64,000 bases of DNA from the human T2T-CHM13v2.0 reference genome, Homo sapiens, in assembly GCF_009914755.1 (NCBI RefSeq), contig NC_060933.1. The stretch is one strand, 5' to 3'. A program made the translations under genes and the position numbers. Each line of letters opens with the position of its first letter. Positions within the stretch are counted from its first letter, which is position 1. A model generated the notes under the pieces. The model ran no database searches, was not told the origin of the DNA, and was given only the letters and a program-made list of their open reading frames with translations. Shown in pieces: positions 279 through 64,000 of this stretch.

Positions 279-293
279 GGAATCTTCCGGAAT
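279..293. promoter_or_regulatory. Perfect three-unit heat-shock element nGAAn-nTTCn-nGAAn (GGAAT CTTCC GGAAT); first of about 50 in the window
   Basis: Exact match to the canonical HSF-binding element. Further copies at 883, 2371, 10031, 22556, 33446, 40126, 40211, 62985 and elsewhere. HSF1 binding to SatIII is established, but occupancy of these particular sites is not shown by the sequence. Confidence 0.7.
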
Positions 294-686
294 GGAATGG
301 AATGGAATGGAATGGAATCAACCCGAGTGCAATGGAATGGAGTGGAATGCAATGGAATGGAATGGAACAACCCGAATGGAATGGAATGTAATGGAGAGTA
401 AGGGAGTTGAATAGAATCATTCCGAATGTAATGGAATGGAATGGAACAGAACGGAATTGAAAGGAATGGAATGGAATGCAATGGAATGGAATCAACCCGA
501 GTGCAATGGAATGGAGAGGAATGGAATGGAATGGAATGGAAAATACCCGAATGGAATGGAATGTAATGGAGTGTAAGGGAATTGAATAGAATCAATCTGA
601 AGGTAATGGAATGGAATGGAACGGAATGGAATGGAATGGAATGGAATGGAATGGAATGGAATGGAATAGAGTGGAATGGAATCAAC

Positions 687-700
687 TCGATTGCAATCGA
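687..700. other. Recurrent perfect 14-bp palindrome TCGATTGCAATCGA (sister palindrome TCCATTGCAATGGA at 4290-4303)
   Basis: Directly read. It recurs in the module preceding TTAACCCGAATAG throughout the window. Confidence 0.9.
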
Positions 701-39300: not shown

Positions 39301-42300
39301 TGGAGTGGAATGGAATGGAATCAACCCGAGTGCAGGGGAATGGAACGGAATGGAATGCAATGGAATGGAATCATCCGGAATGGAATGGAATGAAATGGAA
39401 TGCAAAGCAATGGAATCAACTCGATTGCAATGGAATGGAATAGAATGGAAAGGAATATATTGGAATCAACCCGAGTGGAATGGAATGGAAAGGACTGGAA
39501 TGGAGTGGAATGGAATGGAATGGAATGGAATGGAATCAACTCGATTGGAATGGAATGGAATGGAATGGAATGGAATTAACCCGAATAGAATGGAATGGAA
39601 TGGAATGGAACGGAACGGAGCGGAATGGAACGGAACGGAATGGAATGGAATGGAATGGAATGGAATGGAATCAACCCGACAGCAGGGGAATGGAATGGAA
39701 TGGAATGCAATGGAATGGATTCAACTTTAATGGAATGGAAAGAATGGAATCAACACGAGTGGAATGGCATGGATTGGAATGGAATGGAATGGAATCAACC
39801 CGAGTACAGGGGAATGGAATGGAATGGAATGCAATGGAATGGAATCATCCGTAATGGAATGGAAAAGAATGGAATGGAATGGAATGGAATGGAATGGAAT
39901 GGAATGGAATCAACTCGATTGCAATCGAATGGAATGGAATGGAATTAACCCGAATAGAATGGAATGGAATGGAATGGAATGGAACGGAACGGAATGGAAT
40001 GGAATGGAATGGAATGGAATGGAATGGAATGGAACGGAAAGGAATGGAATGGAATGGAATGGAATGGAATGGAATGGAATCAACGCGAGTGCAGGGGAAA
40101 GGAATGGAATGGAATGCAATGGAATGGAATCTTCCGGAATGGAATGGAATGGAATGGAATGGAATCAACGCGACTGCAGGGGAATGGAATGTAATGGAAT
40201 GTAATGGAATGGAATCTTCCGGAATGGAATGGAATGGAATGGAATCAACCCGAGTGCAATGGAATGGAGTGGAATGGAATGGAATGGAATGGAACAACCC
40301 GAATGGAATCGAATGTAATGGAGAGTAAGGGAGTTGAATAGAATCAATCCGAATGTAATGGAATGGAATGGAACGGAATGGAATTGAATGGAATGGAATG
40401 GAATGCAATGGAATGGAATCATCCGTAATGGAATGGAATGGAATGGAATGGATTGGAATGGAATGGAATGGTATGGAATGGAATGGAATGGTACGGAATA
40501 GAATGGAATGGAACGAATTGTAATGGAATGGAATTGAATGGAAAGGAATGGAATGGAATGGAATCAACGCGAGTGCAGGGGAATGTAATGGAACGGAATG
40601 CAATGGAATGGAATCATCCGGAATGGAATGGAATGGAATGGAATGGAATGGAATCAACCCGAGTGCAATGGAATGGAGTGGAATGGAATGGAATGGAATG
40701 GAACAACCCGAATGGAATGGAATGTAATGGACAGTAAGGGAGTTGAATAGAATGAATGCGAATGTAATGGAATGGAATGCAACGGAATGGAATGGAATGG
40801 AATGGAATGGAATGGAATGGAATGCAAAGGAATGGAATCAACCCGAGTGGAACGGCATGGAATGGAATGCAATGGATTGGAATGGAATGGAATCAACTCG
40901 AGTGGAAAGGAATGGAATGGAATGGAAAGGAATGGAATAAAGTCAACTCGAGTGGAATAGAATGGAATGGAATGGATTGGAATGGATTGCAATGGAATGC
41001 AATGGAATGGAATCAATCATGGAAGGGAATGTAATGGAGTGGAAAGAAGGGAATGGAATCAACCCGAGTGGAATGCAAGGCAATGGAATGGAATGGAAAG
41101 GAATGGAATGGAATCAACTCGATTGCAATGGAATGGAATGGAATGGAATGGAATGGAATGGAATTAACCGGAATAGAATGGAATGGAATGGAATGGGACG
41201 GAATGGAATGGAATGGAAGGGATTGGAATCAACACGAGTGCAGGGGAATGGAATGGAATGGAATGCAATGCAATGGAATCATCCGGAATGGAATGGAATG
41301 GAATGGAATCAACTCCATTGCAATGGAATGGAATGGAATGGAATGGAATAGAATGGAATGGAATTAACCCGAATAGATGGAATGCAATAGAATGGAATGC
41401 AACGGAACCGAATGGAGTGGAATGGAATGGAATGGAATCAACACGAGTACAGGGGAATGGAATGGAATGGAATGCAATGGAATGGAGTCATCCGTAATGG
41501 AATGGAAAGGAATGGAATGGAATGGAATGGAATGGAATGGAATGGAATGGAATGGAATCAACTCGATGGCAATCGAATGGAATGGAATGGAATTAACCCG
41601 AATGGAATGGAATGGAATGGAACGGAACGGAATGGAATGGAATGGAATGGAATGGAATGGAATGGAACGGAACGGAATGGAATGGAATGGAATGGAATGG
41701 AATCAACGCGAGTGCAGGGGAATGGAATGGAATGGAATGCAATGGAATGGAATCTTCCGGAATGGAATGGAATGGAATGGAATGAAAGGCAATGGATTCA
41801 ACTCGATTGCAATGGAATGGAATAGAATGGAATGGAATGGAATGGAATGGAATGGAATTGAATGGAATGGAATGCCTTCAAACCGAATGGAATGGAAAGG
41901 AATGGAATCAACACGAGTGGAAAGGAATGGAATGGAAAGGAATGGAATGGTACGGAATAGAACGGAATGGAACGAACTGGAATGGAATGGAATGGAATGG
42001 AATGGAATGGAATGGAATGGAATCGTTCCGAGTGGAATAGGAGGGAATGTATTCGACTGGAATGGAAAGGAATGGAATCAACCAGAGTGGAATGGAAGGG
42101 AATGGAATGGAATGGAAACTAATAGAATGGAATCAACCTGAGTGAAATGGAATGGAAAGGACTGGAATGGAATGGAATGGAATGGTATGGAATCAACTCG
42201 ATTGTAATGGAATGGAATGGAATGGAATGGAATGGAATGGAATGCAATGGAATGGAATGGAATGGAATTAACCCAAATACAATGGAATGGAATGGAATGG

Positions 42301-44518
42301 AACGGAATGGAGTGGAATGGAATGGAATCAACCCGAGTGCAGGGGAATGGAATGGAATGCAATGCAATGGAATGGAATCATCCGGAATGGAGTCGTATGG
42401 AATGGAATGCAAAGCAATGGAATCAACTCGATTGCAATGGAATGGAATGGAATGGAAAGGAATACATTGGAATCAACCCGAGTGGAATGGAATGGAAAGG
42501 ACTGGAATGGAGTGGAATGGAATGGAATGGAATGGAATGGAATCAACTCGATTGGAATGGAATGGAATGGAATGGAATGGAATGGAATGGAATTAACCCG
42601 AATAGAATGGAATGGAATGGAATGGAACGGAACGGAACGGAACGGAACGGAATGGAATGGAATGGAATGGAATGGAATGGAATCAACCCGACTGCAGGGG
42701 AATGGAATGGAATGGAATGCAATGGAATGGATTCAACTTGAATGGAATGGAAAGAATGGAATCAACACGAGTGGAATGTCATGGATTGGAATGGAATGGA
42801 ATGGAATCAACCCGAGTACAGGGGAATGGAATGGAATGGAATGCAATGGAATGGAATCATGTGTAATGGAATGGAAAGGAATGGAATGGAATGGAATGGA
42901 AAGGAATGGAATGGAATGGAATGGAATGGAATGGAATGGAATGGAATGGAATCAACTCGATTGCAATCGAATGGAATGGAATGGAATTAACCCGAATAGA
43001 ATGGAATGGAATGGAATGGAATGGAACGGAACGGAATGGAATGGAATGGAATGGAATGGAATGGAATGGAACGGAAAGGAATGGAATGGAATGGAATGGA
43101 ATGGAATGGAATGGAATGGAATGGAATCAACGCGAGTGCAGGGGAATGGAAAGGAAGGGAATGCAATGGAATAGAATCTTCCGGAATGGAATGGAATGGA
43201 ATGGAATGGAATGGAATGGAATGGAATAAACCCGAGTGCAATGGAATGGAGTGGAATGGAATGGAATGGAATGGAGCAACCCGAACGGAATGGAATGTAA
43301 TGGAGAGTAAGGGAGTTGAATAGAATCAATCCGAATGTAATGGAATGGAATGGAACGGAATGGAATTGAATGGAATGGAATGGAATGCAATGGAATGGAA
43401 TCAACCCGAGTGCAATGGAATGGAGAGGAATGGAATGGAATGGAATGGAAACTACCCGAATGGAATGGAATGTAATGGATTGTAAGGGAATTGAATAGAA
43501 TCAATCCGAATGGAATGGAATGGAATGGAACGGAATGGAATGGAATGGAATGGAATGGAATGCAATGGAATGGAATCAACCCGAGTGCAATCGAATGGAA
43601 TCGAATGGAATGGAATGCAATGGAATGGATTCAACTTGAATGGAATGGAAAGAATGGAATCAACACGAGTGGAAGGGCATGGATTGGAATGCAATGGAAT
43701 GGAATCAACCGGAGTACAGGGGAATGGAATGGAATGGAATGCAATAGAATGGAATCATCCGTAATGGAATGGAAAGGAATGGAATGGAATGGAATGGAAT
43801 GGAATAGAATGGAATCAACACGATTGCAATCGAATGGAATGGAATGGAATTAACCCGAATAGAATGGAATGGAATGGAATGGAACGGAACGGAATGGAAT
43901 GGAATGGAATGGAATGGAATGGAACGGAACGGAATGGAATGGAATGGAATGGAATGGAATGGAATCAACGCGAGTGCAGGGGAATGGAATGGAATGGAAT
44001 GCAATGGAATGGAATCTTCCGGAATGCAATGGAATGGAATGGAATGGAATGGAATTAACCCGAATAGAATGGAATGGAATGGAATGGAACGGAACGGAAC
44101 GGAACGGAATGGAATGGAATGGAATGGAATGGAATCAACCCGACTGCAGGGGAATGGAATGGAATGGAATGGAATGGAATGGAATGGAATCATCTGGAAC
44201 GGAATGGAATGGAATGGAATGGAATCAACTCGATTGCAATGGAATGGAATGGAATGGAATGGAATGGAATGGAATGGAATGGAATGGAATTCACCCAAAT
44301 AGAATGGAATGGAATGGAATGGAAAGGAATGGAAGGGAAAGAAATGGAATGTAATCAACCCGAGTGCAGGGGAATGGAATGGAATGGAATGCAATGGAAT
44401 GGAATCATCCGGAATGGAATGGAATGGAATGGTATCAACCCGAGTGCAGGGGAATGTAATGGAACGGAATGCAATGGAATGGAGTCATCCGGAATGGAAT
44501 GGAATGGAATGGAATGGA
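33372..44518 (+). repeat. Older ~4.4-kb direct duplication at ~6,765-bp offset (33372-37753 ~ 40137-44518), also copied into 47861-59007
   Basis: ORF twins at +6765 to +6775 (33400/40165, 33978/40743, 35967/42742, 36682/43452, 37544/44309). Shared private variants include GGACAGTAAGG, GAATGAATGCGAAT, ATTCGACTGG, GGAGTCGTATGG, ATCATGTGT and GGAGCAACCCGAACGG. The copies differ by a few SNPs and whole-pentamer indels. Confidence 0.92.
40126..40225. promoter_or_regulatory. Pair of perfect HSEs 85 bp apart (40126-40140, 40211-40225; twin pair at 54615/54700)
   Basis: Two consecutive CAACGCGA-GCAGGGG...CTTCC modules, juxtaposed at the left boundary of the 6.77-kb-offset duplication. Confidence 0.6.
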
Positions 44519-45385: not shown

Positions 45386-48300
45386 GAATGGAATGGAATG
45401 GAATGGAATGGAATGGAATGGAATCAACTCGATTGCAATCGAATGGAATGGAATGGAATTAACCCGAATAGAATGGAATGGAATGGAATGGAACGGAACG
45501 GAATGGAATGGAATGGAATGGAATGGAATGGAACGGAACGGAATGGAATGGAATGGAATAGAATGGAATGGAATGGAATGGAATAAACGCGAGTGCAGGG
45601 GAATGGAATGGAATGGAATGCAATGGAATGGAATCTTTCGGAATGGAATGGAATGGAATGGAATGGAATGAAATGCAATGGATTCAACTCGATAGCAATG
45701 GAATGTAATAGAATGGAATGGAATGTAATGGAATGGAATTAATCCGAATAGAATGGAATGGAATGGAATGGAACGGAATGGAACGGAATGGAATGGAATG
45801 GAATGGAATGGAATGGTATGGAATAGAATGGAATGGTACGGAATAGAATGGAATGGAACGAATTGTAATGGAATGGAATTGAATGGAATGGAATGGAATG
45901 GAATGGAATCAACGCGAGTGCAGGGGAATGTAATGGAACGGAATGCAATGGAATGGAATCATCCGGAATGGAATGGAATGGAATGGAATGGAATGGAATC
46001 AACCCGAGTGCAATGGAATGGAGTGGAATGGAATGCAATGGAATGGAATAACCCGAATGGAATGGAATGTAATGGAGAGTAAGGGAGTTGAATAGAATCA
46101 ATCCGAATGTAATGGAATGGAATGCAACGGAATGGAATGGAATGGAATGGAATGGAATGCAATGGAATGGAATGGAATGGAATCAACGCGAGTGCAGGGG
46201 AATGGAATGTAATGGAATGCAATGGAATGGAATCTTCCGGAATGGAATGGGATGGAATGGAATGGAATCAACCCGAGTGCAATGGAATGGAGTGGAATGG
46301 AATGGAATGGAATGGAACAACCCGAATGGAATCGAAAGTAATGGAGAGTAAGGGAGTTGAATTGAACCAATCCGAATGTAATGGAATGGAATGGAACGGA
46401 ATGGAATTGAATGGAATGGAATGGAATGGAATGCAATGGAATGGAATCAACCCGAGTGCAATGGAATGGAGAGGAATGGAATGGAATGGAGTGGAAACTA
46501 CCCGAATGGAATGGAATGTAATGGAGTGTAAGGGAATTGAATACAATCAATCCGAATGTAATGGAAAGGAATGGAACTTAATGGAATGGAATGGAATGGA
46601 ATGGAATGGAATGGAATGGAATGCAATGGAATGGAATCAACCCGAGTGCAATCGAATGGAATCGAATGGAATGGAATGAAATGGAATGGAATCAACTCGA
46701 TTGCAATCGAATGGAATGGAATGGAATTAACCCGAATAGAATGGAATGGAATGGAAAGGAAAGGAACGGAATGGAATGGAATGGAAAGGAATGGAATGGA
46801 ATGGAATGGAATGGTTCGGAATAGAATGGATTGGAACAAAATGGAATGGAATGGAATGGAATGGAATGGAATGGAATGGAATGGAATGGAATGGAATCAA
46901 GTCGATTGCAATGGAATAGAATGGAATGGAATGGAACGGATTGGAATGGAATGGAATGGAATGGAATGGAATTAAAAGGAATGGAATGGAATGGAATCAA
47001 CCCGAGTGCAGGGGAAAGGAATGGAATGGAATGCAATGGAATGGAATGGAATGGAATGGAATGGAATGGAATGGAATGGAATGGAATGGAATCAACCCGA
47101 GTGGAATGGCATGGAATGGAATGCAATGGAATGGAATGGAATGGAATCAACTCGAGTGGAAAGGAATGGAATGGAATGGAAAGGAATGGAATGAAATCAA
47201 CTCGAGTGGAATGGAATGGAATGGAATGGATTGGAATGGATTGCAATGGAATAAAATGGAATGGAATCGAATGGAATCAATCATTCCGAGTGGAATGGAA
47301 GGGAATGTAATGGAGTGGAAAGAAGGGAATGGAATCAACCAGAGTGGAATGCAAGGCAATGGAATGGAATTGAAAGGAATGGAATGTAATCAACTCAATT
47401 GCAATGGAATGGAATGGAATGGAATGGAATGGAAAGGAATGGAATGGAATGAAATCGAATGGAATGGAGTGCAATGGAATGGAATCAATCCGAGTGCAAT
47501 CGAATGGAATCGAATGGAATGGAATGCAATGGAATGGATTCAACTTGAATGGAATGGAAAGAATGGAATCAACACGAGTGGAATGGCATGGATTGGAATG
47601 GAATGGAATGGAATCAACCCGAGTACAGGGGAATGGAATGGAATGGAATGCAATGGAATGGAATCATCCGTAATGGAATGGAAAGGAATGGAATGGAATG
47701 GAATGGAATGGAATGGAATGGAATGGAATCAACTCGATTGCAATCGAATGGAATGGAATGGAATTAACCCGAATAGAATGGAATGGAATGGAATGGAACG
47801 GAACGGAACGGAACGGAACGGAATGGAATGGAATGGAATGGAACGGAAAGGAATGGAATTGAATGGAATGGAATGGAATGGAATGGAATCAACGCGACTG
47901 CAGGGGAATGGAATGTAATGGAATGTAATGGAATGGAATCTTCCGGAATGGAATGGAATGGAATGGAATCAACCCGAGTGCAATGGAATGGAGTGGAATG
48001 GAATGGAATGGAATGGAACAACCCGAATGGAATCGAATGTAATGGAGAGTAAGGGAGTTGAATAGAATCAATCCGAATGTAATGGAATGGAATGGAACGG
48101 AATGGAATTCAATGGAATGGAATGGAATGCAATGGAATGGAATCATCCGTAATGGAATGGAATGGAATGGAATGGAATGGAATGGAATGGAATGGTATGG
48201 AATGGAATGGAATGGTACGGAATAGAATGGAATGGAACGAATTGTAATGGAATGGAATTGAATGGAAAGGAATGGAATGGAATGGAATCAACGCGAGTGC

Positions 48301-51300: not shown

Positions 51301-54300
51301 CGAGTGCAATCGAATGGAATCGAATGGAATGGAATGCAATGGAATGGATTCAACTTGAATGGAATGGAAAGAATGGAATCAACACGAGTGGAAGGGCATG
51401 GATTGGAATGCAATGGAATGGAATCAACCGGAGTACAGGGGAATGGAATGGAATGGAATGCAATAGAATGGAATCATCCGTAATGGAATGGAAAGGAATG
51501 GAATGGAATGGAATGGAATGGAATAGAATGGAATCAACACGATTGCAATCGAATGGAATGGAATGGAATTAACCCGAATAGAATGGAATGGAATGGAATG
51601 GAACGGAACGGAATGGAATGGAATGGAATGGAATGGAATGGAACGGAACGGAATGGAATGGAATGGAATGGAATGGAATGGAATCAACGCGAGTGCAGGG
51701 GAATGGAATGGAATGGAATGCAATGGAATGGAATCTTCCGGAATGCAATGGAATGGAATGGAATGGAATGGAATTAACCCGAATAGAATGGAATGGAATG
51801 GAATGGAACGGAACGGAACGGAACGGAATGGAATGGAATGGAATGGAATGGAATCAACCCGACTGCAGGGGATTGGAATGGAATGGAATGGAATGGAATG
51901 GAATCATCTGGAACGGAATGGAATGGAATGGAATGGAATCAACTCGATTGCAATGGAATGGAATGGAATGGAATGGAATGGAATGGAATGGAATGGAATG
52001 GAATGGAATGGAATTCACCCGAATAGAATGGAATGGAATGGAATGGAAAGGAATGGAAGGGAAAGAAATGGAATGTAATCAACCCGAGTGCAGGGGAATG
52101 GAATGGAATGGAATGCAATGGAATGGAATCATCCGGAATGGAATGGAATCGAATGGTATCAACCCGAGTGCAGGGGAATGTAATGGAACGGAATGCAATG
52201 GAATGGAGTCATCCGGAATGGAATGGAATGGAATGGAATGGATTGGAATCAACCCGAGTGCAATGGAATGGAGTGGAATGGAATGGAATGGAATGGAACA
52301 ACCCGAATGGAATGGAATGTAATGGAGACTAAGGGAGTTGAATAGAATCAATCCGAATGTAATGGAATGGAATGCAACGGAATGGAATGGAATGGAATGC
52401 AATGGAATGGAATGGAATGGAATGCAAAGGAATGGAATCAACCCGAGTGGAATGGCATGGAATGGATTGCAATGGATTGGAATGGAATGGAATCAACTCG
52501 AGTGGAAAGGAATGGAATGGAATGGAAAGGAATGGAATGAAGTCAACTCGAGTGGAATGGAATGGAATGGAATGGATTGGAATGGATTGCAATGGAATGA
52601 AATGGAATGGAATGGAATGGAATCAATCATTCCGAGTGGAATGGAAGGGAATGTAATGGAGTGGAAAGAAGGGAATGGAATCAACCCGAGTGGAATGCAA
52701 GGCAATGGAATGGAATTGAAAGGAATGGAATGGAATCAACTCGATTGCAATGGAATGGAATGGAATGGAATGGAATGGAATGGAATGGATTTAACCGGAA
52801 TAGAATGGAATGGAATGGAATGGAACGGAATGGAATGGAATGGAAGGGAATGGAATCAACACCAGTGCAGGGGAATGGAATGGAATGGAATGCAATGCAA
52901 TGGAATCATCCGGAATGGAATGGAATGGAATGGAATCAACTCCATTGCAATGGAATGGAATGGAATGGAATGGAATAGAATGGAATGGAATTAACCCGAA
53001 TAGATGGAATGCAATAGAATGGAATGCAACGGAACCGAATGGAGTGGAATGGAATGGAATGGAATTAACCCGAGTACAGGGGAATGGAATGGAAGGGAAT
53101 GCAATGGAATGGAGTCATCCGTAATGGAATGGAAAGGAATGGAACGGAACGGAATGGAATGGAATGGAATGGAATGGAATCAACGCGAGTGCAGGGGAAT
53201 GGAATGGAATGGAATGCAATGGAATGGAATCTTCCGGAATGGAATGGAATGGAATGGAATGAAAGGCAATGGTTTCAACTCGATTGCAATGGAATGGAAT
53301 AGAATGGAATGGAATGGAATGGAATGGAATGGAATGGAATTGAATGGAATGGAATGCCTTCAAAACGAATGGAATGGAAAGGAATGGAATCAACACGAGT
53401 GGAAAGGAATGGAATGGAAAGGAATGGAATGGAATGGAATGGTACGGAATAGAACGGAATGGAACGAACTGGAATGGAAAGGAATGGAATGGAATGGAAT
53501 GGAATCGTTCCGAGTGGAATAGGAGGGAATGTATTCGAGTGGAATGGAAAGGAATGGAATCAACCAGAGTGGAATGGAAGGGAATGGAATGGAATGGAAA
53601 CTAATAGAATGGAATCAACCCGAGTGGAATGGAATGGAAAGGACTGGAATGGAATGGAATGGAATGGAATGGAATGGAATGGAATCAACTCGATTGTAAT
53701 GGAATGGAATGGAATGGAATGGAATGGAATGCAATGGAATGGAATGGAATGGAATTAACCCGAATACAATGGAATGGAATGGAACGGAATGGAGTGGAAT
53801 GGAATGGAATCAACCCGAGTGCAGGGGAATGGAACGGAATGGAATGCAATGGAATGGAATCATCCGGAATGGAATGGAATGAAATGGAATGCAAAGCAAT
53901 GGAATCAACTCGATTGCAATGGAATGGAATAGAATGGAAAGGAATATATTGGAATCAACCCGAGTGGAATGGAATGGAAAGGACTGGAATGGAGTGGAAT
54001 GGAATGGAATGGAATGGAATGGAATCAACTCGATTGGAATGGAATGGAATGGAATGGAATGGAATTAACCCGAATAGAATGGAATGGAATGGAATGGAAC
54101 GGAACGGAGCGGAATGGAACGGAACGGAATGGAATGGAATGGAATGGAATGGAATGGAATCAACCCGACAGCAGGGGAATGGAATGGAATGGAATGCAAT
54201 GGAATGGATTCAACTTTAATGGAATGGAAAGAATGGAATCAACACGAGTGGAATGGCATGGATTGGAATGGAATGGAATGGAATCAACCCGAGTACAGGG

Positions 54301-57300
54301 GAATGGAATGGAATGGAATGCAATGGAATGGAATCATCCGTAATGGAATGGAAAAGAATGGAATGGAATGGAATGGAATGGAATGGAATGGAATGGAATC
54401 AACTCGATTGCAATCGAATGGAATGGAATGGAATTAACCCGAATAGAATGGAATGGAATGGAATGGAATGGAACGGAACGGAATGGAATGGAATGGAATG
54501 GAATGGAATGGAATGGAATGGAACGGAAAGGAATGGAATGGAATGGAATGGAATGGAATGGAATGGAATCAACGCGAGTGCAGGGGAAAGGAATGGAATG
54601 GAATGCAATGGAATGGAATCTTCCGGAATGGAATGGAATGGAATGGAATGGAATCAACGCGACTGCAGGGGAATGGAATGTAATGGAATGTAATGGAATG
54701 GAATCTTCCGGAATGGAATGGAATGGAATGGAATCAACCCGAGTGCAATGGAATGGAGTGGAATGGAATGGAATGGAATGGAACAACCCGAATGGAATCG
54801 AATGTAATGGAGAGTAAGGGAGTTGAATAGAATCAATCCGAATGTAATGGAATGGAATGGAACGGAATGGAATTGAATGGAATGGAATGGAATGCAATGG
54901 AATGGAATCATCCGTAATGGAATGGAATGGAATGGAATGGATTGGAATGGAATGGAATGGTATGGAATGGAATGGAATGGTACGGAATAGAATGGAATGG
55001 AACGAATTGTAATGGAATGGAATTGAATGGAAAGGAATGGAATGGAATGGAATCAACGCGAGTGCAGGGGAATGTAATGGAACGGAATGCAATGGAATGG
55101 AATCATCCGGAATGGAATGGAATGGAATGGAATGGAATGGAATCAACCCGAGTGCAATGGAATGGAGTGGAATGGAATGGAATGGAATGGAACAACCCGA
55201 ATGGAATGGAATGTAATGGACAGTAAGGGAGTTGAATAGAATGAATGCGAATGTAATGGAATGGAATGCAACGGAATGGAATGGAATGGAATGGAATGGA
55301 ATGGAATGGAATGCAAAGGAATGGAATCAACCCGAGTGGAACGGCATGGAATGGAATGCAATGGATTGGAATGGAATGGAATCAACTCGAGTGGAAAGGA
55401 ATGGAATGGAATGGAAAGGAATGGAATAAAGTCAACTCGAGTGGAATAGAATGGAATGGAATGGATTGGAATGGATTGCAATGGAATGCAATGGAATGGA
55501 ATCAATCATGGAAGGGAATGTAATGGAGTGGAAAGAAGGGAATGGAATCAACCCGAGTGGAATGCAAGGCAATGGAATGGAATGGAAAGGAATGGAATGG
55601 AATCAACTCGATTGCAATGGAATGGAATGGAATGGAATGGAATGGAATGGAATTAACCGGAATAGAATGGAATGGAATGGAATGGGACGGAATGGAATGG
55701 AATGGAAGGGATTGGAATCAACACGAGTGCAGGGGAATGGAATGGAATGGAATGCAATGCAATGGAATCATCCGGAATGGAATGGAATGGAATGGAATCA
55801 ACTCCATTGCAATGGAATGGAATGGAATGGAATGGAATAGAATGGAATGGAATTAACCCGAATAGATGGAATGCAATAGAATGGAATGCAACGGAACCGA
55901 ATGGAGTGGAATGGAATGGAATGGAATCAACACGAGTACAGGGGAATGGAATGGAATGGAATGCAATGGAATGGAGTCATCCGTAATGGAATGGAAAGGA
56001 ATGGAATGGAATGGAATGGAATGGAATGGAATGGAATGGAATGGAATCAACTCGATGGCAATCGAATGGAATGGAATGGAATTAACCCGAATGGAATGGA
56101 ATGGAATGGAACGGAACGGAATGGAATGGAATGGAATGGAATGGAATGGAATGGAACGGAACGGAATGGAATGGAATGGAATGGAATGGAATCAACGCGA
56201 GTGCAGGGGAATGGAATGGAATGGAATGCAATGGAATGGAATCTTCCGGAATGGAATGGAATGGAATGGAATGAAAGGCAATGGATTCAACTCGATTGCA
56301 ATGGAATGGAATAGAATGGAATGGAATGGAATGGAATGGAATGGAATTGAATGGAATGGAATGCCTTCAAACCGAATGGAATGGAAAGGAATGGAATCAA
56401 CACGAGTGGAAAGGAATGGAATGGAAAGGAATGGAATGGTACGGAATAGAACGGAATGGAACGAACTGGAATGGAATGGAATGGAATGGAATGGAATGGA
56501 ATGGAATGGAATCGTTCCGAGTGGAATAGGAGGGAATGTATTCGACTGGAATGGAAAGGAATGGAATCAACCAGAGTGGAATGGAAGGGAATGGAATGGA
56601 ATGGAAACTAATAGAATGGAATCAACCTGAGTGAAATGGAATGGAAAGGACTGGAATGGAATGGAATGGAATGGTATGGAATCAACTCGATTGTAATGGA
56701 ATGGAATGGAATGGAATGGAATGGAATGGAATGCAATGGAATGGAATGGAATGGAATTAACCCAAATACAATGGAATGGAATGGAATGGAACGGAATGGA
56801 GTGGAATGGAATGGAATCAACCCGAGTGCAGGGGAATGGAATGGAATGCAATGCAATGGAATGGAATCATCCGGAATGGAGTCGTATGGAATGGAATGCA
56901 AAGCAATGGAATCAACTCGATTGCAATGGAATGGAATGGAATGGAAAGGAATACATTGGAATCAACCCGAGTGGAATGGAATGGAAAGGACTGGAATGGA
57001 GTGGAATGGAATGGAATGGAATGGAATGGAATCAACTCGATTGGAATGGAATGGAATGGAATGGAATGGAATGGAATGGAATTAACCCGAATAGAATGGA
57101 ATGGAATGGAATGGAACGGAACGGAACGGAACGGAACGGAATGGAATGGAATGGAATGGAATGGAATGGAATCAACCCGACTGCAGGGGAATGGAATGGA
57201 ATGGAATGCAATGGAATGGATTCAACTTGAATGGAATGGAAAGAATGGAATCAACACGAGTGGAATGTCATGGATTGGAATGGAATGGAATGGAATCAAC

Positions 57301-59922
57301 CCGAGTACAGGGGAATGGAATGGAATGGAATGCAATGGAATGGAATCATGTGTAATGGAATGGAAAGGAATGGAATGGAATGGAATGGAAAGGAATGGAA
57401 TGGAATGGAATGGAATGGAATGGAATGGAATGGAATGGAATCAACTCGATTGCAATCGAATGGAATGGAATGGAATTAACCCGAATAGAATGGAATGGAA
57501 TGGAATGGAATGGAACGGAACGGAATGGAATGGAATGGAATGGAATGGAATGGAATGGAACGGAAAGGAATGGAATGGAATGGAATGGAATGGAATGGAA
57601 TGGAATGGAATGGAATCAACGCGAGTGCAGGGGAATGGAAAGGAAGGGAATGCAATGGAATAGAATCTTCCGGAATGGAATGGAATGGAATGGAATGGAA
57701 TGGAATGGAATGGAATAAACCCGAGTGCAATGGAATGGAGTGGAATGGAATGGAATGGAATGGAGCAACCCGAACGGAATGGAATGTAATGGAGAGTAAG
57801 GGAGTTGAATAGAATCAATCCGAATGTAATGGAATGGAATGGAACGGAATGGAATTGAATGGAATGGAATGGAATGCAATGGAATGGAATCAACCCGAGT
57901 GCAATGGAATGGAGAGGAATGGAATGGAATGGAATGGAAACTACCCGAATGGAATGGAATGTAATGGATTGTAAGGGAATTGAATAGAATCAATCCGAAT
58001 GGAATGGAATGGAATGGAACGGAATGGAATGGAATGGAATGGAATGGAATGCAATGGAATGGAATCAACCCGAGTGCAATCGAATGGAATCGAATGGAAT
58101 GGAATGCAATGGAATGGATTCAACTTGAATGGAATGGAAAGAATGGAATCAACACGAGTGGAAGGGCATGGATTGGAATGCAATGGAATGGAATCAACCG
58201 GAGTACAGGGGAATGGAATGGAATGGAATGCAATAGAATGGAATCATCCGTAATGGAATGGAAAGGAATGGAATGGAATGGAATGGAATGGAATAGAATG
58301 GAATCAACACGATTGCAATCGAATGGAATGGAATGGAATTAACCCGAATAGAATGGAATGGAATGGAATGGAACGGAACGGAATGGAATGGAATGGAATG
58401 GAATGGAATGGAACGGAACGGAATGGAATGGAATGGAATGGAATGGAATGGAATCAACGCGAGTGCAGGGGAATGGAATGGAATGGAATGCAATGGAATG
58501 GAATCTTCCGGAATGCAATGGAATGGAATGGAATGGAATGGAATTAACCCGAATAGAATGGAATGGAATGGAATGGAACGGAACGGAACGGAACGGAATG
58601 GAATGGAATGGAATGGAATGGAATCAACCCGACTGCAGGGGAATGGAATGGAATGGAATGGAATGGAATGGAATGGAATCATCTGGAACGGAATGGAATG
58701 GAATGGAATGGAATCAACTCGATTGCAATGGAATGGAATGGAATGGAATGGAATGGAATGGAATGGAATGGAATGGAATTCACCCAAATAGAATGGAATG
58801 GAATGGAATGGAAAGGAATGGAAGGGAAAGAAATGGAATGTAATCAACCCGAGTGCAGGGGAATGGAATGGAATGGAATGCAATGGAATGGAATCATCCG
58901 GAATGGAATGGAATGGAATGGTATCAACCCGAGTGCAGGGGAATGTAATGGAACGGAATGCAATGGAATGGAGTCATCCGGAATGGAATGGAATGGAATG
59001 GAATGGAATGGAATGGAATTAACCCGAATAGAATGGAATGGAATGGAATGGAACGGAATGGAACGGAATGGAATGGAATGGAATGGAATGGAATGGTATG
59101 GAAAGGAATGGAATGGTACGGAATAGAATGGAATGGAACGAATTGTAATGGAATGGAATTTAATGGAACGGAATGGAATGGAATGGAATCAACGCGAGTG
59201 CAGGGGAATGTAATGGAACGGAATGCAATGGAATGGAATCATCCGGAATGGAATGGAATGGAATGGAATGGAATGGAATGGAATGGAATGGAATCAACCC
59301 GAGTGCAATGGAATGGAGTGGAATGGAATGGAATGGAATGGAACAACCCGAATGGAATGGAATGTAATGGAGAGTAAGGGAGTTGAATAGAATCAATCCG
59401 AATGTAATGGAATGGAATGCAACGGAATGGAATGGAATGGAATGCAATGGAATGGAATGGAATGGAACGCAACGGAATGGAATCAACCCGAGTGGAATGG
59501 CATGGAATGGAATGCAATGGATTGGAATGGAATGGAATCAACTCGAGTGGAAAGGAATGGAATGGAATGGAAAGGAATGGAATGAAGTCAACTCGAGTGG
59601 AATGGAATGGAATGGAATGGATTGGAATGGATTGCAATGGAATGAAGTGGAATGGAATGGAATGGAATCAACTCCATTGCAATGGAATGGAATGGAATGG
59701 AATGGAATAGAATGGAATGGAATTAACCCGATTAGAATGGAATGCAATACAAGGGAATGCAACGGAACCGAATGGAGTGGAATGGAATGGAATGGAATCA
59801 ACCCGAGTACAGGGGAATGGAATGGAATGGAAAGCAATGGAATGGAGTCATCCGTAATGGAACGGAAAGGAATGGAATGGAATGGAATGGAATGGAATGG
59901 AATGGAATGGAATCAACTCGAT
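45386..59922 (+). repeat. 14,489-bp tandem duplication, copy 2 (plus 48-bp junction overlap)
   Basis: Identity to copy 1 runs until 45434 T vs 59923 G (CTCGATTGC vs CTCGATGGC). I noticed no internal mismatch by eye or in the ORF track. Confidence 0.96.
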
Positions 59923-62900
59923 GGCAATCGAATGGAATGGAATGGAATTAACCCGAATAGAATGGAATGGAATGGAATGGAACGGAACGGAATGGAATGG
60001 AATGGAATGGAATGGAATGGAACGGAACGGAATGGAATGGAATGGAATGGAATGGAATCAACGCGAGTGCAGGGGAATGGAATGGAATGGAATGTAATGG
60101 AATGGAATCTTACGGAATGGAATGGAATGGAATGGAATGGAATGAAAGGCAATGGATTCAACTCGATTGCAATGGAATGGAATAGAATGGAATGGAATGG
60201 AATGGAATGGAATGGAATGGAATGGAATGGAATCAACTCGATGGCAATCGAATGGAATGGAATGGAATTAACCCGAATAGAATGAAATGGAATGGAATGG
60301 AACGGAACGGAATGGAATGGAATGGAATGGAATGGAGTGGAACGGAACGGAATGGAATGGAATGGAATGGAATGGAAAGGAATGGAATCAACGCGATTGC
60401 AGGGGAATGGAATGTAATGGAATGCAAAGGAATGGAATGGGAATGGAATGTAATGGAATGCAATGGAATGGAATCTTCCGGAATGGAATGGAATGTAATG
60501 GAATCAACCCGAGTGCAATGGAATGGAGTGGAATGGAATGGAATGGAATGGAACAACCCGAATGGAATCGAATGTAATGGAGAGTAAGGGAGTTGAATAG
60601 AATCAATCCGAATGTAATGGAATGGAATGGAAAGGAATGGAATGGAATGGAATGGAATGGAATGCAATGGAATGGAATCAACCCGAGTGCAATCGAATGG
60701 AATCGAATGGAATGGAATGGAATGGAATGGAACGGAAAGGAAGGGAATGGAATGGAATAGAATGGAATAGAATGGAATCAACGCGAGTGCAGGGGAATGG
60801 AATGGAATGCAATGCAATGGAATGGAATCATCCGGAATGGAATGGAATGGAATGGAATGGAATGGAATGGAATGGAATGGAATCAACCCGAGTGCAATGG
60901 AATGGAGAGGAATGGAATGGAATGGAATGGAAACTACACGAATGGAATGGAATGTAATGGAGTGTAAGGGAATTGAATAGAATGAATCCGAATGGAATGG
61001 AATGCAATGGAATGGAAAGGAATGGAATGGAATGGAATGGAATGGAATGGAATGGAATGCAATGCCATGGAATCAACCCGAGTGCAATCGAATGGAATCG
61101 AATGGAATGGAATGCAATGGAATGGATTCAACTTGAATGGAATGGAAAGAATGGAATCAACACGAGTGGAATGGCATGGATTGGAATGGAATGGAATGGA
61201 ATCAACCCGAGTACAGGGGAATGGAATGGAATGGAATGCAATGGAATGGAATCATCCGTAATGGAATGGAAAGGAATGGAATGGAATGGAATGGAATGGA
61301 ATGGAATGGAAAGGAATGGAATGGAATGGAATGGAATGGAATGGAATGGAATGGAATGGAATCAACTCGATTGCAATCGAATGGAATGGAATGGAATTAA
61401 CCCGAATAGAATGGAATGGAATAGAATGGAACGGAACGGAACGGAATGGAATGGAATGGAATGGAATGGAATGGAAGGGAACGGAAAGGAATGGAATGGA
61501 ATGGAATGGAATGGAATGGAATGGAGTGGAATCAACGCGAGTTCAGGGGAATGGAATGGAATGGAATGCAATGGAATGGAATCTTCCGGAATGGAATGGA
61601 ATGGAATGGAATGGAATGGAATGGAATGGAATCAACCCGAGTGCAATGGAATGGAGTGGAATGGAATGGAATGGAATGGAACAACCCGAATGGAATGGAA
61701 TGTAATGGAGAGTAAGGGAGTTGAATAGAATCAATCCGAATGTAATGGAATGGAATGGAACGGAATGGAATTGAATGGAATGGAATGGAATGGAATGGAA
61801 TGGAATCAACACGATTGCAATGGAATGGAATGGAATGGAATTAACCCGAATAGAATGGAATGGAATGGAATGGAACGGAACGGAATGGAATGGAATGGAA
61901 TGGAATGGAATGGAACGGAACGGAATGGAATGGAATGGAATGGAATGGAATGGAATGGAAAGGAATGGAATCAACGCGAGTGCAGGGGAATGGAATGTAA
62001 TGGAATGCAATGGAATGGAATGTTCCGGAATGGAATGGAATGTAATGGAATCAACCCGAGTGCAATGGAATGGAGTGGAATGGAATGGAATGGAATGGAA
62101 CAACCCGAATGGAATCGAATGTAATGGAGAGTAAGGGAGTTGAATAGAATCAATCCGAATGTAATGGAATGGAATGGAACGGAATGGAATTGAATGGAAT
62201 GGAATGGAATGCAATGGAATGGAATCAACCCGAGTGCAATGGAATGGAGAGGAATGGAAGGCAATGGAATGGATTCAACTTGAATGGAATGGAAAGAATG
62301 GAATCAACACGAGTGGAATGGCATGGATTGGAAAGGAATGGAATGGAATCAACCCGAGTACAGGGGAATGGAATGGAATGGAATTAAATGGAATGGAATC
62401 ATCCGTAATGTAATGGAAAGGAATGGAATGGAATGGAATGGAATGGAATGGAATCAACTCGATTGCAATTGAATGGAATGGAATGGAATTAACCCGAATA
62501 GAATGGAATGGAATGGAATGGAATGGAACGGAACGGAATGGAATGGAATGGAATGGAATGGAACGGAACGGATCGGAATGGAATGGAATGGAATGGAATG
62601 GAATGGAATCAACGCGAGTGCAGGGGAATGGAATGGAATGGAATGCAATGGAATGGAATCTACCCGAGTACAGGGGAATGGAATGGAATGGAATGGAATG
62701 CAATGGAATGGAATCATCCGTAATGGAATGGAAAGGAATGGAATGGAATGGAATGGAATGGAATGGAATCAACTCGAGTGCAATCGAATGGAATGGAATG
62801 GAATTAAACCGAATAGAATGGAATGGAATGGAATGGAACGGAACGGAATGGAATGGAATGGAATGGAATGGAACGGAACGGAACGGAACGGAACGGAATG

Positions 62901-64000
62901 GAATGGAATGGAATGGAATGGAATGGAATGGAATGGAATCAACGCGAGTGCACGGGAATGGAATGGAATGGAATGCAATGGAATGGAATCTTCCGGAATG
63001 GAATGGAATGGAATGGAATGGAATGAAATGCAATGGATTCAACTCGATTGCAATGGAATGTTATAGAATGGGATGGAATGGAATGGAATGGAATTAACCC
63101 GAATAGAATGGAATGGAATGGAATGGAACGGAATGGAATGGTACGGAACAGAATGGAATGGAACGAATTGTAATGGAATGGAATTGAATGGAATGGAATG
63201 GAATGGAATGGAATCAACGCGAGTGCAGGGGAATGTAATGGAACGGAATGCAATGGAATGGAATCATCCGGAATGGAATGGAATGGAATGGAATGGAATG
63301 GAATCAACCCGAGTGCAATGGAATGGTGTGGAATGGAATGGAATGGAATGGAACAACCCGAATGCAATGGAATGTAATGGAGAGTAAGGGAGTTGAATAG
63401 AATCAATCCGAATGAAATGGAATGGAATGCAACGGAATGGAATGGAATGGAATGGAAAGGAATGGAATGGAATGGAATGGAATGCAAAGGAATGGAATCA
63501 ACCCGAGTGGAATGGCATGGAATGGAATGCAATGGATTGGAATGGAATGGAATCAACTCGAGTGGAAAGGAATGGAATGGAATGGAAAGGAATGGAATGA
63601 AGTCAACTCGAGTGGAATGGAATGGAATGGAATGGATTGGAATGGATTGCAATGGAATGAAATGGAATGGAATGGAATGGAATCAATCATTCCGAGTGGA
63701 ATGGAAGGGAATGTAATGGAGTGGAAAGAACGGAATGGAATCAACCCGAGTGGAATGCAAGGCAATGGAATGGAATGGAAAGGAATGGAATGGAATCAAC
63801 TCGATTGCAATGGAATGGAAAGGAATGGAATGGAATTAACCGGAATAGAATGGAATGGAATGGAATGGAACGGAATGGACTGAACACGAGTGCAGGGGAA
63901 TGGAATGGAATGGAATGCAATGGAATGGAATCATCCGGAATGGAATGGAATGGAATGGAATCAACTCCATTGCAATGGAATGGAATGGAATGGAATGGAA

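What the first reader, a model, noticed from the sequence alone, without database searches (positions are those of the whole stretch)
279..62999. A distributed lattice of ~50 perfect heat-shock elements written into one satellite module
Seen: the variant pentamer CTTCC inserted in register gives gGAAt-cTTCc-gGAAt, an exact nGAAn-nTTCn-nGAAn element. I count about 50 by hand, roughly one per 1.3 kb. Several copies are mutated only at 'n' positions and stay perfect (GGAAACTTCC 9641, CTTCT 29426, AGAATCTTCC 36403, GTTCC 62022). A few break the core (CTTTC 31146/45635, CTTAC ~60109). The paralogous module carries CATCC, one base away from an HSE. Each HSE dyad spans a CpG (CCGG). Established: HSF1 trimers need inverted nGAAn units, which plain head-to-tail GGAAT does not supply, and HSF1 binds SatIII to drive SatIII RNA and nuclear stress bodies. 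Inference: this single A-to-T variant, amplified by duplication, could be what makes some HSat3 arrays HSF1 platforms, with CpG methylation at the dyad and duplication copy number acting as tuning variables.
Basis: partly seen in the sequence, partly recalled or inferred. Interest (0 to 1): 0.82.

Follow-up and report, generated by a model that had tools for sequence, protein, structure and literature searches.

The report
Heat-shock-factor sites in chromosome 9 satellite
The 50 perfect heat-shock elements are real copies of one variant five-base unit amplified through the chromosome 9 satellite where heat-shock factor 1 is known to gather, so the sighting is correct but largely known.

Summary
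The window (chr9q12 HSat3) holds exactly 50 perfect three-unit heat-shock elements (GAAnnTTCnnGAA), all on the GGAAT strand, with mean spacing 1,280 bp. All come from the variant pentamer CTTCC in one module type. Paralogous modules carry CATCC.

The 50 are not independent. One base change was amplified by nested duplications of 14.5 kb, about 7 kb and 1.26 kb. I see no sign of purifying selection.

Genome-wide in CHM13, the 15-mer GGAATCTTCCGGAAT occurs 12,700 times. None lies on chr1-8, and my chr9 sampling accounts for about that total. The Y-chromosome DYZ1 satellite carries about 14,000 perfect elements built from three other pentamer variants. By my estimate, chr9 and Y together explain about nine-tenths of the genome's surplus of perfect elements. 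Samples of chr15, chr14 and chr21 HSat3 and of chr1 and chr16 HSat2 have none.

9q12 and Yq12 are the two published primary HSF1 targets. Putative HSEs at 9q12 and HSF1-motif sub-regions that track ChIP-seq are already in print. The idea is therefore largely known. The base-level anatomy and the copy numbers are the modest additions. Methylation tuning is untested.

The parts
279..62999 (+). Span of the 50 perfect three-unit HSEs inside chr9q12 HSat3 (GGAAT satellite). The 54 CTTCC-family sites are listed individually below.
280..292 (+). perfect HSE GAATCTTCCGGAA
884..896 (+). perfect HSE GAATCTTCCGGAA
2372..2384 (+). perfect HSE GAATCTTCCGGAA
3235..3247 (+). perfect HSE GAATCTTCCGGAA
7128..7140 (+). 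perfect HSE GAATCTTCCGGAA
9642..9654 (+). perfect HSE, n-position variant GAAACTTCCGGAA
10032..10044 (+). perfect HSE GAATCTTCCGGAA
11645..11659 (+). GGAGTCTTCCGTAAT: the T variant inside a CATCCGTAAT-type module, with both flanking GAA units broken. Not an HSE. Either a recurrent change or gene conversion.
14413..14425 (+). perfect HSE GAATCTTCCGGAA
16669..16681 (+). perfect HSE GAATCTTCCGGAA
17477..17489 (+). perfect HSE GAATCTTCCGGAA
19748..19760 (+). perfect HSE GAATCTTCCGGAA
20441..20453 (+). perfect HSE GAATCTTCCGGAA
21299..21311 (+). perfect HSE GAATCTTCCGGAA, inside the 1,258-bp tandem duplication
21679..21691 (+). perfect HSE GAATCTTCCGGAA
22557..22569 (+). perfect HSE GAATCTTCCGGAA
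22937..22949 (+). perfect HSE GAATCTTCCGGAA
23815..23827 (+). perfect HSE GAATCTTCCGGAA
24290..24302 (+). perfect HSE GAATCTTCCGGAA
25108..25120 (+). perfect HSE GAATCTTCCGGAA
27365..27377 (+). perfect HSE GAATCTTCCGGAA
28089..28101 (+). perfect HSE GAATCTTCCGGAA
29422..29434 (+). perfect HSE with the CpG lost, GAATCTTCTGGAA (C to T at an n position)
29646..29658 (+). perfect HSE GAATCTTCCGGAA
30309..30321 (+). perfect HSE GAATCTTCCGGAA
31141..31155 (+). broken copy GGAATCTTTCGGAAT (core C to T). Same event as 45630, which lies 14,489 bp away.
31741..31753 (+). perfect HSE GAATCTTCCGGAA
33447..33459 (+). perfect HSE GAATCTTCCGGAA
34985..34997 (+). perfect HSE GAATCTTCCGGAA
36404..36416 (+). 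perfect HSE with AGAAT first unit. One event present in 4 duplicated copies.
37242..37254 (+). perfect HSE GAATCTTCCGGAA
38738..38750 (+). perfect HSE GAATCTTCCGGAA
40127..40139 (+). perfect HSE, first of a pair 85 bp apart
40212..40224 (+). perfect HSE, second of a pair 85 bp apart
41750..41762 (+). perfect HSE GAATCTTCCGGAA
43174..43186 (+). perfect HSE with AGAAT first unit
44012..44024 (+). perfect HSE GAATCTTCCGGAA
45630..45644 (+). broken copy GGAATCTTTCGGAAT, duplicate of 31141
46230..46242 (+). perfect HSE GAATCTTCCGGAA
47936..47948 (+). perfect HSE GAATCTTCCGGAA
49474..49486 (+). perfect HSE GAATCTTCCGGAA
50893..50905 (+). perfect HSE with AGAAT first unit
51731..51743 (+). perfect HSE GAATCTTCCGGAA
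53227..53239 (+). perfect HSE GAATCTTCCGGAA
54616..54628 (+). perfect HSE, first of a pair 85 bp apart
54701..54713 (+). perfect HSE, second of a pair 85 bp apart
56239..56251 (+). perfect HSE GAATCTTCCGGAA
57663..57675 (+). perfect HSE with AGAAT first unit
58501..58513 (+). perfect HSE GAATCTTCCGGAA
60104..60118 (+). broken copy GGAATCTTACGGAAT (core C to A)
60471..60483 (+). perfect HSE GAATCTTCCGGAA
61579..61591 (+). perfect HSE GAATCTTCCGGAA
62018..62030 (+). perfect HSE, n-position variant GAATGTTCCGGAA
62986..62998 (+). perfect HSE GAATCTTCCGGAA
31012..59922 (+). Two copies of a 14,489-bp repeat, each built of about 6.77-kb and 7.72-kb sub-repeats. This multiplies the HSE-bearing modules. 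The bounds are approximate, taken from shared 60-mers.
21264..23777 (+). 1,258-bp tandem duplication carrying HSE pairs. The end is approximate.

Best explanation
The window is chr9q12 HSat3, the array labelled HSat3B5 in a published table. One of its recurring modules has the form CAACGCGAGTGCAGGGG, then a 28-base GGAAT-type spacer, then a variant pentamer. In that module the pentamer is CTTCC instead of the commoner CATCC. Because it sits in register between GGAAT units, it forms gGAAt-cTTCc-gGAAt, a canonical three-unit heat-shock element. Unequal exchange and nested duplication spread this module to about one per 1.3-1.7 kb, roughly 15,000 copies over the approximately 27-Mb array.

I infer that on heat shock HSF1 trimers dock on these elements as the high-affinity anchors. 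In this view the surrounding head-to-tail GGAAT units and the one-off near-elements such as CATCC are at most weak sites. The resulting density would concentrate HSF1, drive RNA polymerase II transcription of the GGAAU-rich strand, and nucleate nuclear stress bodies at 9q12.

Shown here: the sequence anatomy, the single origin, the chr9 specificity, the copy number, and the contrast with other arrays. Taken from the literature: HSF1 binds 9q12 and Yq12, and ChIP-seq follows motif density. Inferred: that these exact elements are the sites HSF1 occupies.
For: Anatomy:
- 50 of 50 elements are in-register perfect HSEs on the G-rich strand.
- 107 of the 113 CTTCC slots tabulated in 224 kb of chr9 sequence follow the CAACGCG...GCAGGGG signature. 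Modules with CAACCCG signatures carry CATCC (232) and almost never CTTCC (4).

Specificity:
- The exact 15-mer occurs 12,700 times in CHM13 (6,460 forward, 6,240 reverse). There are none on chr1-8 and none on chr9 before 49.76 Mb.
- 16 samples of 10 kb between 49.5 and 57 Mb hold 75 exact 15-mers (0.47 per kb) and 92 HSEs (0.575 per kb). Over about 27.2 Mb this extrapolates to about 12,800, close to the genome total.

Genome budget:
- There are 76,189 perfect HSEs against 43,994 for the reversed-pattern control, a surplus of about 32,200.
- chr9 accounts for about 15,000.
- Three Y-specific 15-mers add 14,278 hits: 4,836, 4,895 and 4,547.
- The Y hits are almost all on the forward strand. This explains most of the forward-minus-reverse excess of 14,055.

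Contrast with other arrays: 0 perfect HSEs in 43 kb of chr15 HSat3, 6 kb of chr14, 6 kb of chr21, 7 kb of chr1 HSat2, 7 kb of chr16 HSat2, and 10 kb of chr9 HSat3 at 48.5 Mb.

Literature (passages read):
- 9q12 and Yq12 are the primary HSF1 targets, and four perfect HSEs lie in the 3,564-bp Y unit (PMC7889540).
- HSF1 shifts the 9q12 clone pHuR98, and a consensus HSE competes (PMC2173303).
- HSF1 motifs lie in sub-regions of HSat3 arrays, and heat-shock ChIP-seq is enriched where motif density is high (10.1101/2024.10.22.616524).
- The HSE probe used as positive control reads GGAATATTCCCGACC, which matches 8 of 9 core bases. The satellite element is therefore a closer match to consensus than that probe.
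Against: - No base-resolution binding data were available to me.
- The preprint's PWM-based table gives HSF1 motif enrichment of about 10 for chr9 HSat3B5, about 16 for chrY HSat3A6, 18.6 for chr15 HSat3A5, and up to 47 for small HSat3A1 arrays. By that measure chr9 is not special. I attribute this to near-elements matching 8 of 9 core bases, which are common in many arrays, but I did not reproduce their scan.
- HT1080 cells put HSF1 on Yq12 and not on 9q12 although 9q12 can bind it in vitro. Chromatin or cofactors therefore also decide.
- Secondary stress bodies form on other chromosomes when HSF1 is overexpressed.
- Jolly et al. 2002 considered recognition of unusual DNA structure.
- I sampled only the first 7.5 Mb of the chr9 array plus this window.
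- HSat3A1 and HSat3A2 arrays were not knowingly sampled.
Confidence: 0.72

Rival explanations
1. The elements are real matches but a neutral by-product. A single base change hitch-hiked on a module that happened to be amplified. Which arrays recruit HSF1 is set mainly by chromatin state, array size or cofactors rather than by these sites.
For: - Single origin and spread by duplication.
- No excess of n-position over core changes beyond chance. There are 4 against 2 independent events in the window. In 224 kb there are 9 variant types at 6 n positions against 5-6 at 9 core positions.
- Near-elements one base from an HSE are common in GGAAT satellites at 0.3-2.4 per kb, so chance creation is easy.
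- HT1080 cells ignore 9q12 despite its elements.
Against: - The two arrays with thousands of perfect elements are exactly the two documented primary HSF1 targets, and the sampled arrays without them are not.
- ChIP-seq follows motif density within arrays.
- Lack of per-site selection is expected for any one of about 15,000 redundant copies. It says nothing about binding.
Confidence: 0.13
2. HSF1 is held at 9q12 by the bulk satellite. The holding sequences would be head-to-tail GGAAT runs, the commoner one-off elements such as GGAATCATCCGGAAT, or an unusual DNA structure of the G-rich strand. The perfect elements would add little.
For: - HSF1 shifted the 158-bp pHuR98 probe, giving several complexes and only from slower-migrating probe forms. 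The authors raised structure recognition.
- The CATCC 15-mer is also essentially chr9-specific and more numerous, at 20,563 copies.
- From recall rather than a call: the guanine of GAA is the main base-specific contact, and CATCC keeps it.
Against: - chr15, chr14 and chr21 HSat3 are equally GGAAT-rich (53-72 GGAAT per kb in the samples), yet they are not primary targets and have no perfect element.
- The pHuR98 shift needed more HSF1 than a consensus HSE did.
- I could not check whether pHuR98 itself contains CTTCC.
Confidence: 0.12
3. The variant matters because it creates a different site. CTTCCGG reads CCGGAAG on the other strand, which is an ETS-type core with a central CpG. An ETS-family factor rather than HSF1 would be the relevant reader.
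For: The core CCGGAAG is present in every CTTCCGG copy (sequence reading). ETS binding to CCGGAAG and its sensitivity to CpG methylation are recalled, not tested.
Against: - The flanks (T before the core, A after it) differ from the class I ETS consensus as I recall it.
- The preprint reports that ETS-family motifs are not enriched in HSat3 apart from one fusion motif.
- No ETS factor is reported at 9q12 in the papers I read.
Confidence: 0.03

Closest known systems
Canonical heat-shock element (three or more alternately inverted nGAAn units) as in HSP70 promoters
   Same: Exact nGAAnnTTCnnGAAn with 5-bp register. It is a closer match to consensus than the HSP70-derived EMSA probe GGAATATTCCCGACC quoted in PMC2173303.
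   Different: It is embedded in a megabase satellite at about 0.5-0.8 per kb, roughly 15,000 copies, rather than upstream of a gene. It is exactly three units long and is flanked by same-orientation GGAAT units. It lies in constitutive heterochromatin.
HSF1 binding to 9q12 satellite III and nuclear stress bodies (Jolly 2002 and 2004; Rizzi 2004; reviews PMC9032817 and PMC10505914)
   Same: Same locus and same factor. The reviews already say HSF1 probably recognises HSE-like sequences scattered in HSat3 and that putative HSEs exist at 9q12.
   Different: Those texts give neither the sequence nor the number of sites. [quoted passage not shown] Here the element, its module, its chr9 specificity and an approximate count are given.
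Perfect HSEs in the Yq12 DYZ1 (HSat3A6) 3.56-kb unit (Penin et al. 2021, PMC7889540)
   Same: Perfect three-unit elements interspersed in an HSat3 array that is a primary HSF1 target. The density is similar or higher, at 0.78 per kb in my 18 kb. Three 15-mers are each present about 4,500-4,900 times.
   Different: Independent origin. The Y elements use GTTCT, GTTCT and TTTCT/ATTCT pentamers at fixed positions of a strict higher-order repeat. Almost all lie on one strand. None has the TTCCGGAA palindrome.
HSF1 motif sub-regions of HSat3 arrays (Franklin et al. preprint, 10.1101/2024.10.22.616524)
   Same: States that HSF1 motifs lie in sub-regions of HSat3 arrays and that heat-shock ChIP-seq in MCF7 follows motif density. 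My samples also show patchiness: 0 HSEs at 52.5 Mb and 48.5 Mb against 2-10 per 10 kb elsewhere.
   Different: Their measure is PWM enrichment. By that measure chr15 HSat3A5 scores higher (18.6) than chr9 HSat3B5 (about 10). The strict 9-of-9 count used here separates chr9 and Y from chr15. I could not see their Figure 2b or their PDF supplement.

Membership tests
Canonical heat-shock element (HSE) | At least three contiguous nGAAn units in alternating orientation at 5-bp spacing | tested here: met
   50 matches to GAANNTTCNNGAA in the window. 92 matches in 160 kb of other chr9 samples.
Canonical heat-shock element (HSE) | Bound by trimeric HSF1 | not testable with these tools
   Indirect only. 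There is EMSA on a different 158-bp 9q12 clone, and ChIP-seq follows motif density according to preprint text.
Canonical heat-shock element (HSE) | Confers heat-inducible transcription on nearby DNA | not testable with these tools
   Heat-induced transcription of the GGAAU strand of 9q12 is published (passages). It has not been tied to these elements.
Human satellite 3, chr9 subfamily (HSat3B5) | GGAAT-based satellite located in 9q12 | tested here: met
   7,268 GGAAT on the + strand against 14 on the - strand in 64 kb. The window is chr9:74,896,001-74,960,000 of CHM13 (hub note).
Human satellite 3, chr9 subfamily (HSat3B5) | Subfamily-specific k-mer classification (Altemose scheme) | not tested
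   The classifier was not available. The label rests on the column names chr9_HSat3B5_88 to _322 in the preprint's supplementary table and on the chr9 specificity of the CTTCC and CATCC 15-mers.
ETS-family binding site | Core CCGGAAG with consensus flanks | tested here: inconclusive
   The core is present on the - strand of every CTTCCGG copy. The flanks differ from the recalled consensus. No binding data.

The most novel reading that the evidence does not exclude
Perfect HSEs arose independently in two unrelated HSat3 subfamilies. On chr9 the route was CATCC to CTTCC. On the Y it was three other pentamer variants. These two are the HSat3 arrays that grew to tens of megabases in humans. The large chr15 array has no perfect element in the 43 kb I sampled from a span of about 7 Mb. 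The boldest reading not excluded is that gaining HSF1-responsive transcription itself favours expansion or retention of a satellite array. The cause could be selection for a stress-body function or transcription-linked amplification. On that reading HSE copy number would be a heritable, variable dose of the stress response, with the CTTCC/CATCC pair as a natural one-base control.
Probability: 0.1. Interest if true: 0.65.

Novelty: already known. Interest (0 to 1): 0.33.

Why it matters
Why HSF1 gathers at 9q12 has been discussed since 2002, when the NGAAN units of the satellite were noted to be arranged unlike a canonical HSE. The sequence shows that canonical elements do exist there, at roughly 15,000 copies. 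By my estimate, 9q12 and Yq12 together hold about nine-tenths of the genome's surplus of perfect elements. This fits, and puts numbers on, what two groups have already indicated.

What remains useful is practical. The CTTCC and CATCC 15-mers are both chr9-specific and differ by one base. Existing ChIP-seq reads can therefore test directly whether the perfect element is what HSF1 reads. Strict counting separates arrays that PWM enrichment does not.

Tried and rejected
- Selection on the element. I tabulated variants of the 15-mer in 152 modules chosen by their upstream signature, and independent events in the window. n positions do not vary significantly more than core positions. Two of the n-position changes are CpG transitions. 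I rejected this as evidence for constraint.
- Global shift autocorrelation was swamped by the 5-bp period. I replaced it with shared 60-mers.
- My first module tabulation used wrong offsets and was redone.
The distal 20 Mb is represented only by this window and by the genome-wide count.
- Exact-string literature search for the 13-mer and three 10- to 13-mers found 97 papers, of which 25 were listed. None of the listed titles concerns satellites or HSF1. The single paper with the 13-mer is a chance match inside a Cas12a coding sequence.
- A search for an effect of CpG methylation on HSF1 binding found nothing usable. 147 papers held 3 of the 4 terms; 15 were listed and none was on the point.
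- Rizzi 2004 (PMC329232) is not held.
- Two 2026 papers on HSATIII and HSF1 and one 2026 preprint give no sequence-level account of HSEs in HSat3 in the passages found.

Full report
**Observation.** The window is GGAAT-rich satellite, with 7,268 GGAAT on the + strand against 14 on the - strand. The hub note and one search place it at chr9:74,896,001-74,960,000 of T2T-CHM13, which is 9q12.

- GAANNTTCNNGAA matches 50 times, always as GAA-TTC-GAA on the + strand. Shuffles give a mean of 0.39.
- 43 matches are the exact 15-mer GGAATCTTCCGGAAT.
- 7 matches differ only at n positions.
- 4 further family members are broken in a core base.
The spacing is as stated (mean 1,280 bp), and so is the CATCC paralogue (55 + 29 copies).
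- 49 of 50 elements contain the palindrome TTCCGGAA with a central CpG.

**What it is.** I located modules by their upstream signature instead of by the element, using the window plus 16 other chr9 samples (224 kb, 532 signature sites).

- CTTCC is tied to one module type. 107 of the 113 CTTCC slots tabulated follow CAACGCGAGTGCAGGGG and a plain GGAAT spacer.
- Modules with CAACCCG signatures carry CATCC (232) and CTTCC only 4 times.
- A second CAACGCG module with a GTAATGGAAC spacer carries CATCC.
- CATCC is the state in several module types, so CTTCC is most simply the derived state.

The copies are not independent.

- The region 31-60 kb is two copies of a 14,489-bp repeat, itself made of about 6.77-kb and 7.72-kb sub-repeats. 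There is also a 1,258-bp tandem duplication at 21.2-23.8 kb.
- By flank identity the 54 sites fall into 29-38 groups.
- The four AGAAT variants are one event, and the two CTTTC copies are one event.

The shuffle statistic therefore overstates surprise. The real event is one base change in one module, followed by amplification.

**Selection.**

- Independent changes in the window are 4 at n positions and 2 in core bases. Neutrality predicts 6:9, so there is no significant departure.
- In 152 signature-defined modules I count 9 variant types at the 6 n positions and 5-6 at the 9 core positions. That is a weak trend, and two of the n-position types are CpG transitions.
- The CpG occupies two n positions. 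Deamination (CTTCT, or CCAGAAT) leaves the element perfect, and 4 such copies were seen in 224 kb.
- Near-elements matching 8 of 9 core bases occur at 0.3-2.4 per kb in most GGAAT satellites I sampled. A one-step gain of a perfect element is therefore easy.
- Nothing here requires selection on individual sites.

**Genome-wide picture.** The whole CHM13 assembly could be searched by pattern.

- The CTTCC 15-mer occurs 12,700 times (6,460 forward, 6,240 reverse). The listing is ordered by contig with both strands interleaved (shown), and it starts at chr9:49,755,937. There are therefore none on chr1-8.
- Sixteen 10-kb samples from 49.5-57.0 Mb hold 75 exact 15-mers and 92 perfect elements. The range is 0-10 per 10 kb, with none at 52.5 Mb. 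An HSat3 sample at 48.5 Mb has none.
- 0.47 per kb over about 27.2 Mb gives about 12,800. Essentially all copies are accounted for by the chr9 array, within roughly 10% sampling error.
- The CATCC 15-mer occurs 20,563 times. The listing shows one chr1 hit before the chr9 hits begin, so it too is absent from the rest of chr1-8.
- GGAATNTTCNGGAAT occurs 14,004 times. The 100 hits listed, on chr1-7, are scattered and not clustered in satellites.

All perfect three-unit elements number 76,189 (45,122 forward, 31,067 reverse), against 43,994 for the reversed pattern.

- Six of eight 3-kb samples of Yq12 are HSat3. They carry 14 perfect elements (0.78 per kb), all on the + strand, at three recurring positions built from other pentamers.
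- Those three 15-mers occur 4,836, 4,895 and 4,547 times. Almost all are forward, at a period of about 3.55 kb on the Y, with 46, 1 and 30 scattered hits elsewhere.
- Their forward-minus-reverse sum is 13,190. That explains most of the genome's strand asymmetry of 14,055.
- chr9 holds about 15,000 (12,700 scaled by 92/75 or 50/43) and the Y about 14,200. Together these are about 29,000-30,000 of the surplus of about 32,200.

**Other arrays.** Probes placed the chr15 HSat3 array at 6.5-13.5 Mb.

- In 43 kb of it there is no perfect element and not even one GAAnnTTC or TTCnnGAA pair.
- chr14 (6 kb), chr21 (6 kb), chr1 HSat2 (7 kb) and chr16 HSat2 (7 kb) also have none.
- These arrays are internally homogeneous, so the samples say that their repeat units lack the element. 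They are not many independent tests.
- I did not knowingly sample HSat3A1 or HSat3A2 arrays.

**Literature.** I read passages only unless stated otherwise.

- Jolly et al. 2002 (PMC2173303) mapped HSF1 granules to 9q11-q12. They showed that recombinant HSF1 shifts the 158-bp clone pHuR98 at higher protein amounts than a consensus HSE, and that the HSE competes. They remarked that the NGAAN units are organised unlike a canonical HSE.
- Penin et al. 2021 (PMC7889540) showed Yq12 is also a primary target. They found four perfect HSEs in the 3,564-bp Y unit and suggested that more HSEs at Yq12 than at 9q12 could explain the higher affinity. My densities fit that suggestion: 0.78 per kb in my Y samples, or about 1.1 per kb if four per unit, against 0.57 per kb on chr9.
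- The 2022 review PMC9032817 says putative HSEs at 9q12 are an unpublished observation and that the number of sites is unknown.
- The 2023 review PMC10505914 says HSF1 probably recognises HSE-like sequences scattered in HSat3.
- The preprint 10.1101/2024.10.22.616524 says HSF1 motifs lie in sub-regions of HSat3 arrays and that heat-shock ChIP-seq is enriched where motif density is high.

**A result against a simple reading.** I read the header and the HSF1 row of that preprint's supplementary table. It gives PWM enrichment of about 10 for chr9 HSat3B5 blocks, about 16 for chrY HSat3A6, 18.6 for chr15 HSat3A5, and 20-47 for some small HSat3A1 arrays. That does not single out chr9. I think the difference from my strict count comes from 8-of-9 near-elements, but I did not reproduce their scan. 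I could not see their figures or their PDF supplement.

**What I did not find in print.** No text gave the CTTCC/CATCC anatomy or the copy numbers.

- An exact-string search found no relevant paper among the 25 listed of 97. The one 13-mer hit is a coincidence in a Cas12a gene.
- Searches on HSat3 + HSF1, on HSF1 + CHM13, and on HSATIII + heat shock element led only to the papers above.

**Mechanism.**

- Shown: a canonical element at high copy number, specific to the chr9 array. A convergent counterpart exists on the Y, and the element is absent from the other sampled arrays.
- From the literature: those two arrays are the primary HSF1 targets, and ChIP follows motif density.
- Inferred: HSF1 trimers dock on the CTTCC elements as high-affinity anchors. 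Near-elements and plain GGAAT would give the weak binding seen on other chromosomes when HSF1 is in excess. Site density would concentrate HSF1 and start transcription of the G-rich strand.
- Chromatin must also matter, because HT1080 cells use Yq12 and not 9q12.
- The methylation idea remains untested. The only relevant fact from the sequence is that the CpG sits at n positions.

**Verdict.** It is a refinement of something already known in outline. The Y shows that the specific A-to-T change is not the general rule.

Noticed in passing
G000 chr9 samples L005 (49.5 Mb), L009 (51.5 Mb) and L014 (54.0 Mb), against the other samples: The chr9 array switches orientation repeatedly. Three of the 16 HSat3B5-type samples have GGAAT on the - strand. 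Genome-wide, the chr9-specific 15-mer is split 6,460 forward to 6,240 reverse.
   Followed up: partly
window 1-64000: There is no CpG depletion. With 1,664 CG, 5,123 C and 21,749 G in 64,000 bases, observed/expected is about 0.96. About a third of all + strand cytosines are in CpG (numbers).
   Followed up: no
L003 (chr9:48,500,001-48,510,000): An HSat3 block proximal to the main array has 1,085 GGAAT per 10 kb but no CTTCC or CATCCGG 15-mer and no perfect HSE. It carries GGAATCATCCCGAAT instead. It may be one of the chr9_HSat3B3 blocks named in the preprint's table.
   Followed up: partly
L011 (chr9:52,500,001-52,510,000): A 10-kb stretch of the main array has 8 CATCC 15-mers but no CTTCC and no HSE. 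This is patchiness within the array.
   Followed up: no
window 11645-11659: GGAGTCTTCCGTAAT carries the T variant inside a CATCCGTAAT-type module with a CAACCCGAGTACAGGGG signature. It is either a recurrent A-to-T change or gene conversion between module types. Four comparable off-type CTTCC slots were seen in 224 kb.
   Followed up: partly
L021-L024, L026 and L027 (chrY 30-54 Mb): The Y DYZ1 unit has three perfect HSEs at fixed offsets. The first two are 280 bp apart and the third lies 1,026 bp after the second. It also has 2.4 near-elements per kb. L025 and L028 are AT-rich non-GGAAT blocks, presumably the interleaved DYZ2.
   Followed up: partly
window, 15 copies; chr9 samples, 45 copies: A second recurrent near-element, GGAAACTACCCGAAT, matches 8 of 9 core bases. 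It is part of the ...GGAAACTACCCGAATGG... module.
   Followed up: no
L049-L055 (chr15 7-13 Mb): The chr15 HSat3 array is very uniform. Each 5 kb has 335-362 GGAAT, 13-15 TTC on the G-rich strand and 142-157 CpG. Its recurrent near-element is GGAATGTGCTCGAAT, seen 24 times in 43 kb.
   Followed up: no
L058 (chr1:133,000,001-133,005,000): chr1 HSat2 has GAAnnTTC pairs recurring at a 2,244-bp period (positions 146 and 2390; 1798 and 4042) but no third unit.
   Followed up: no
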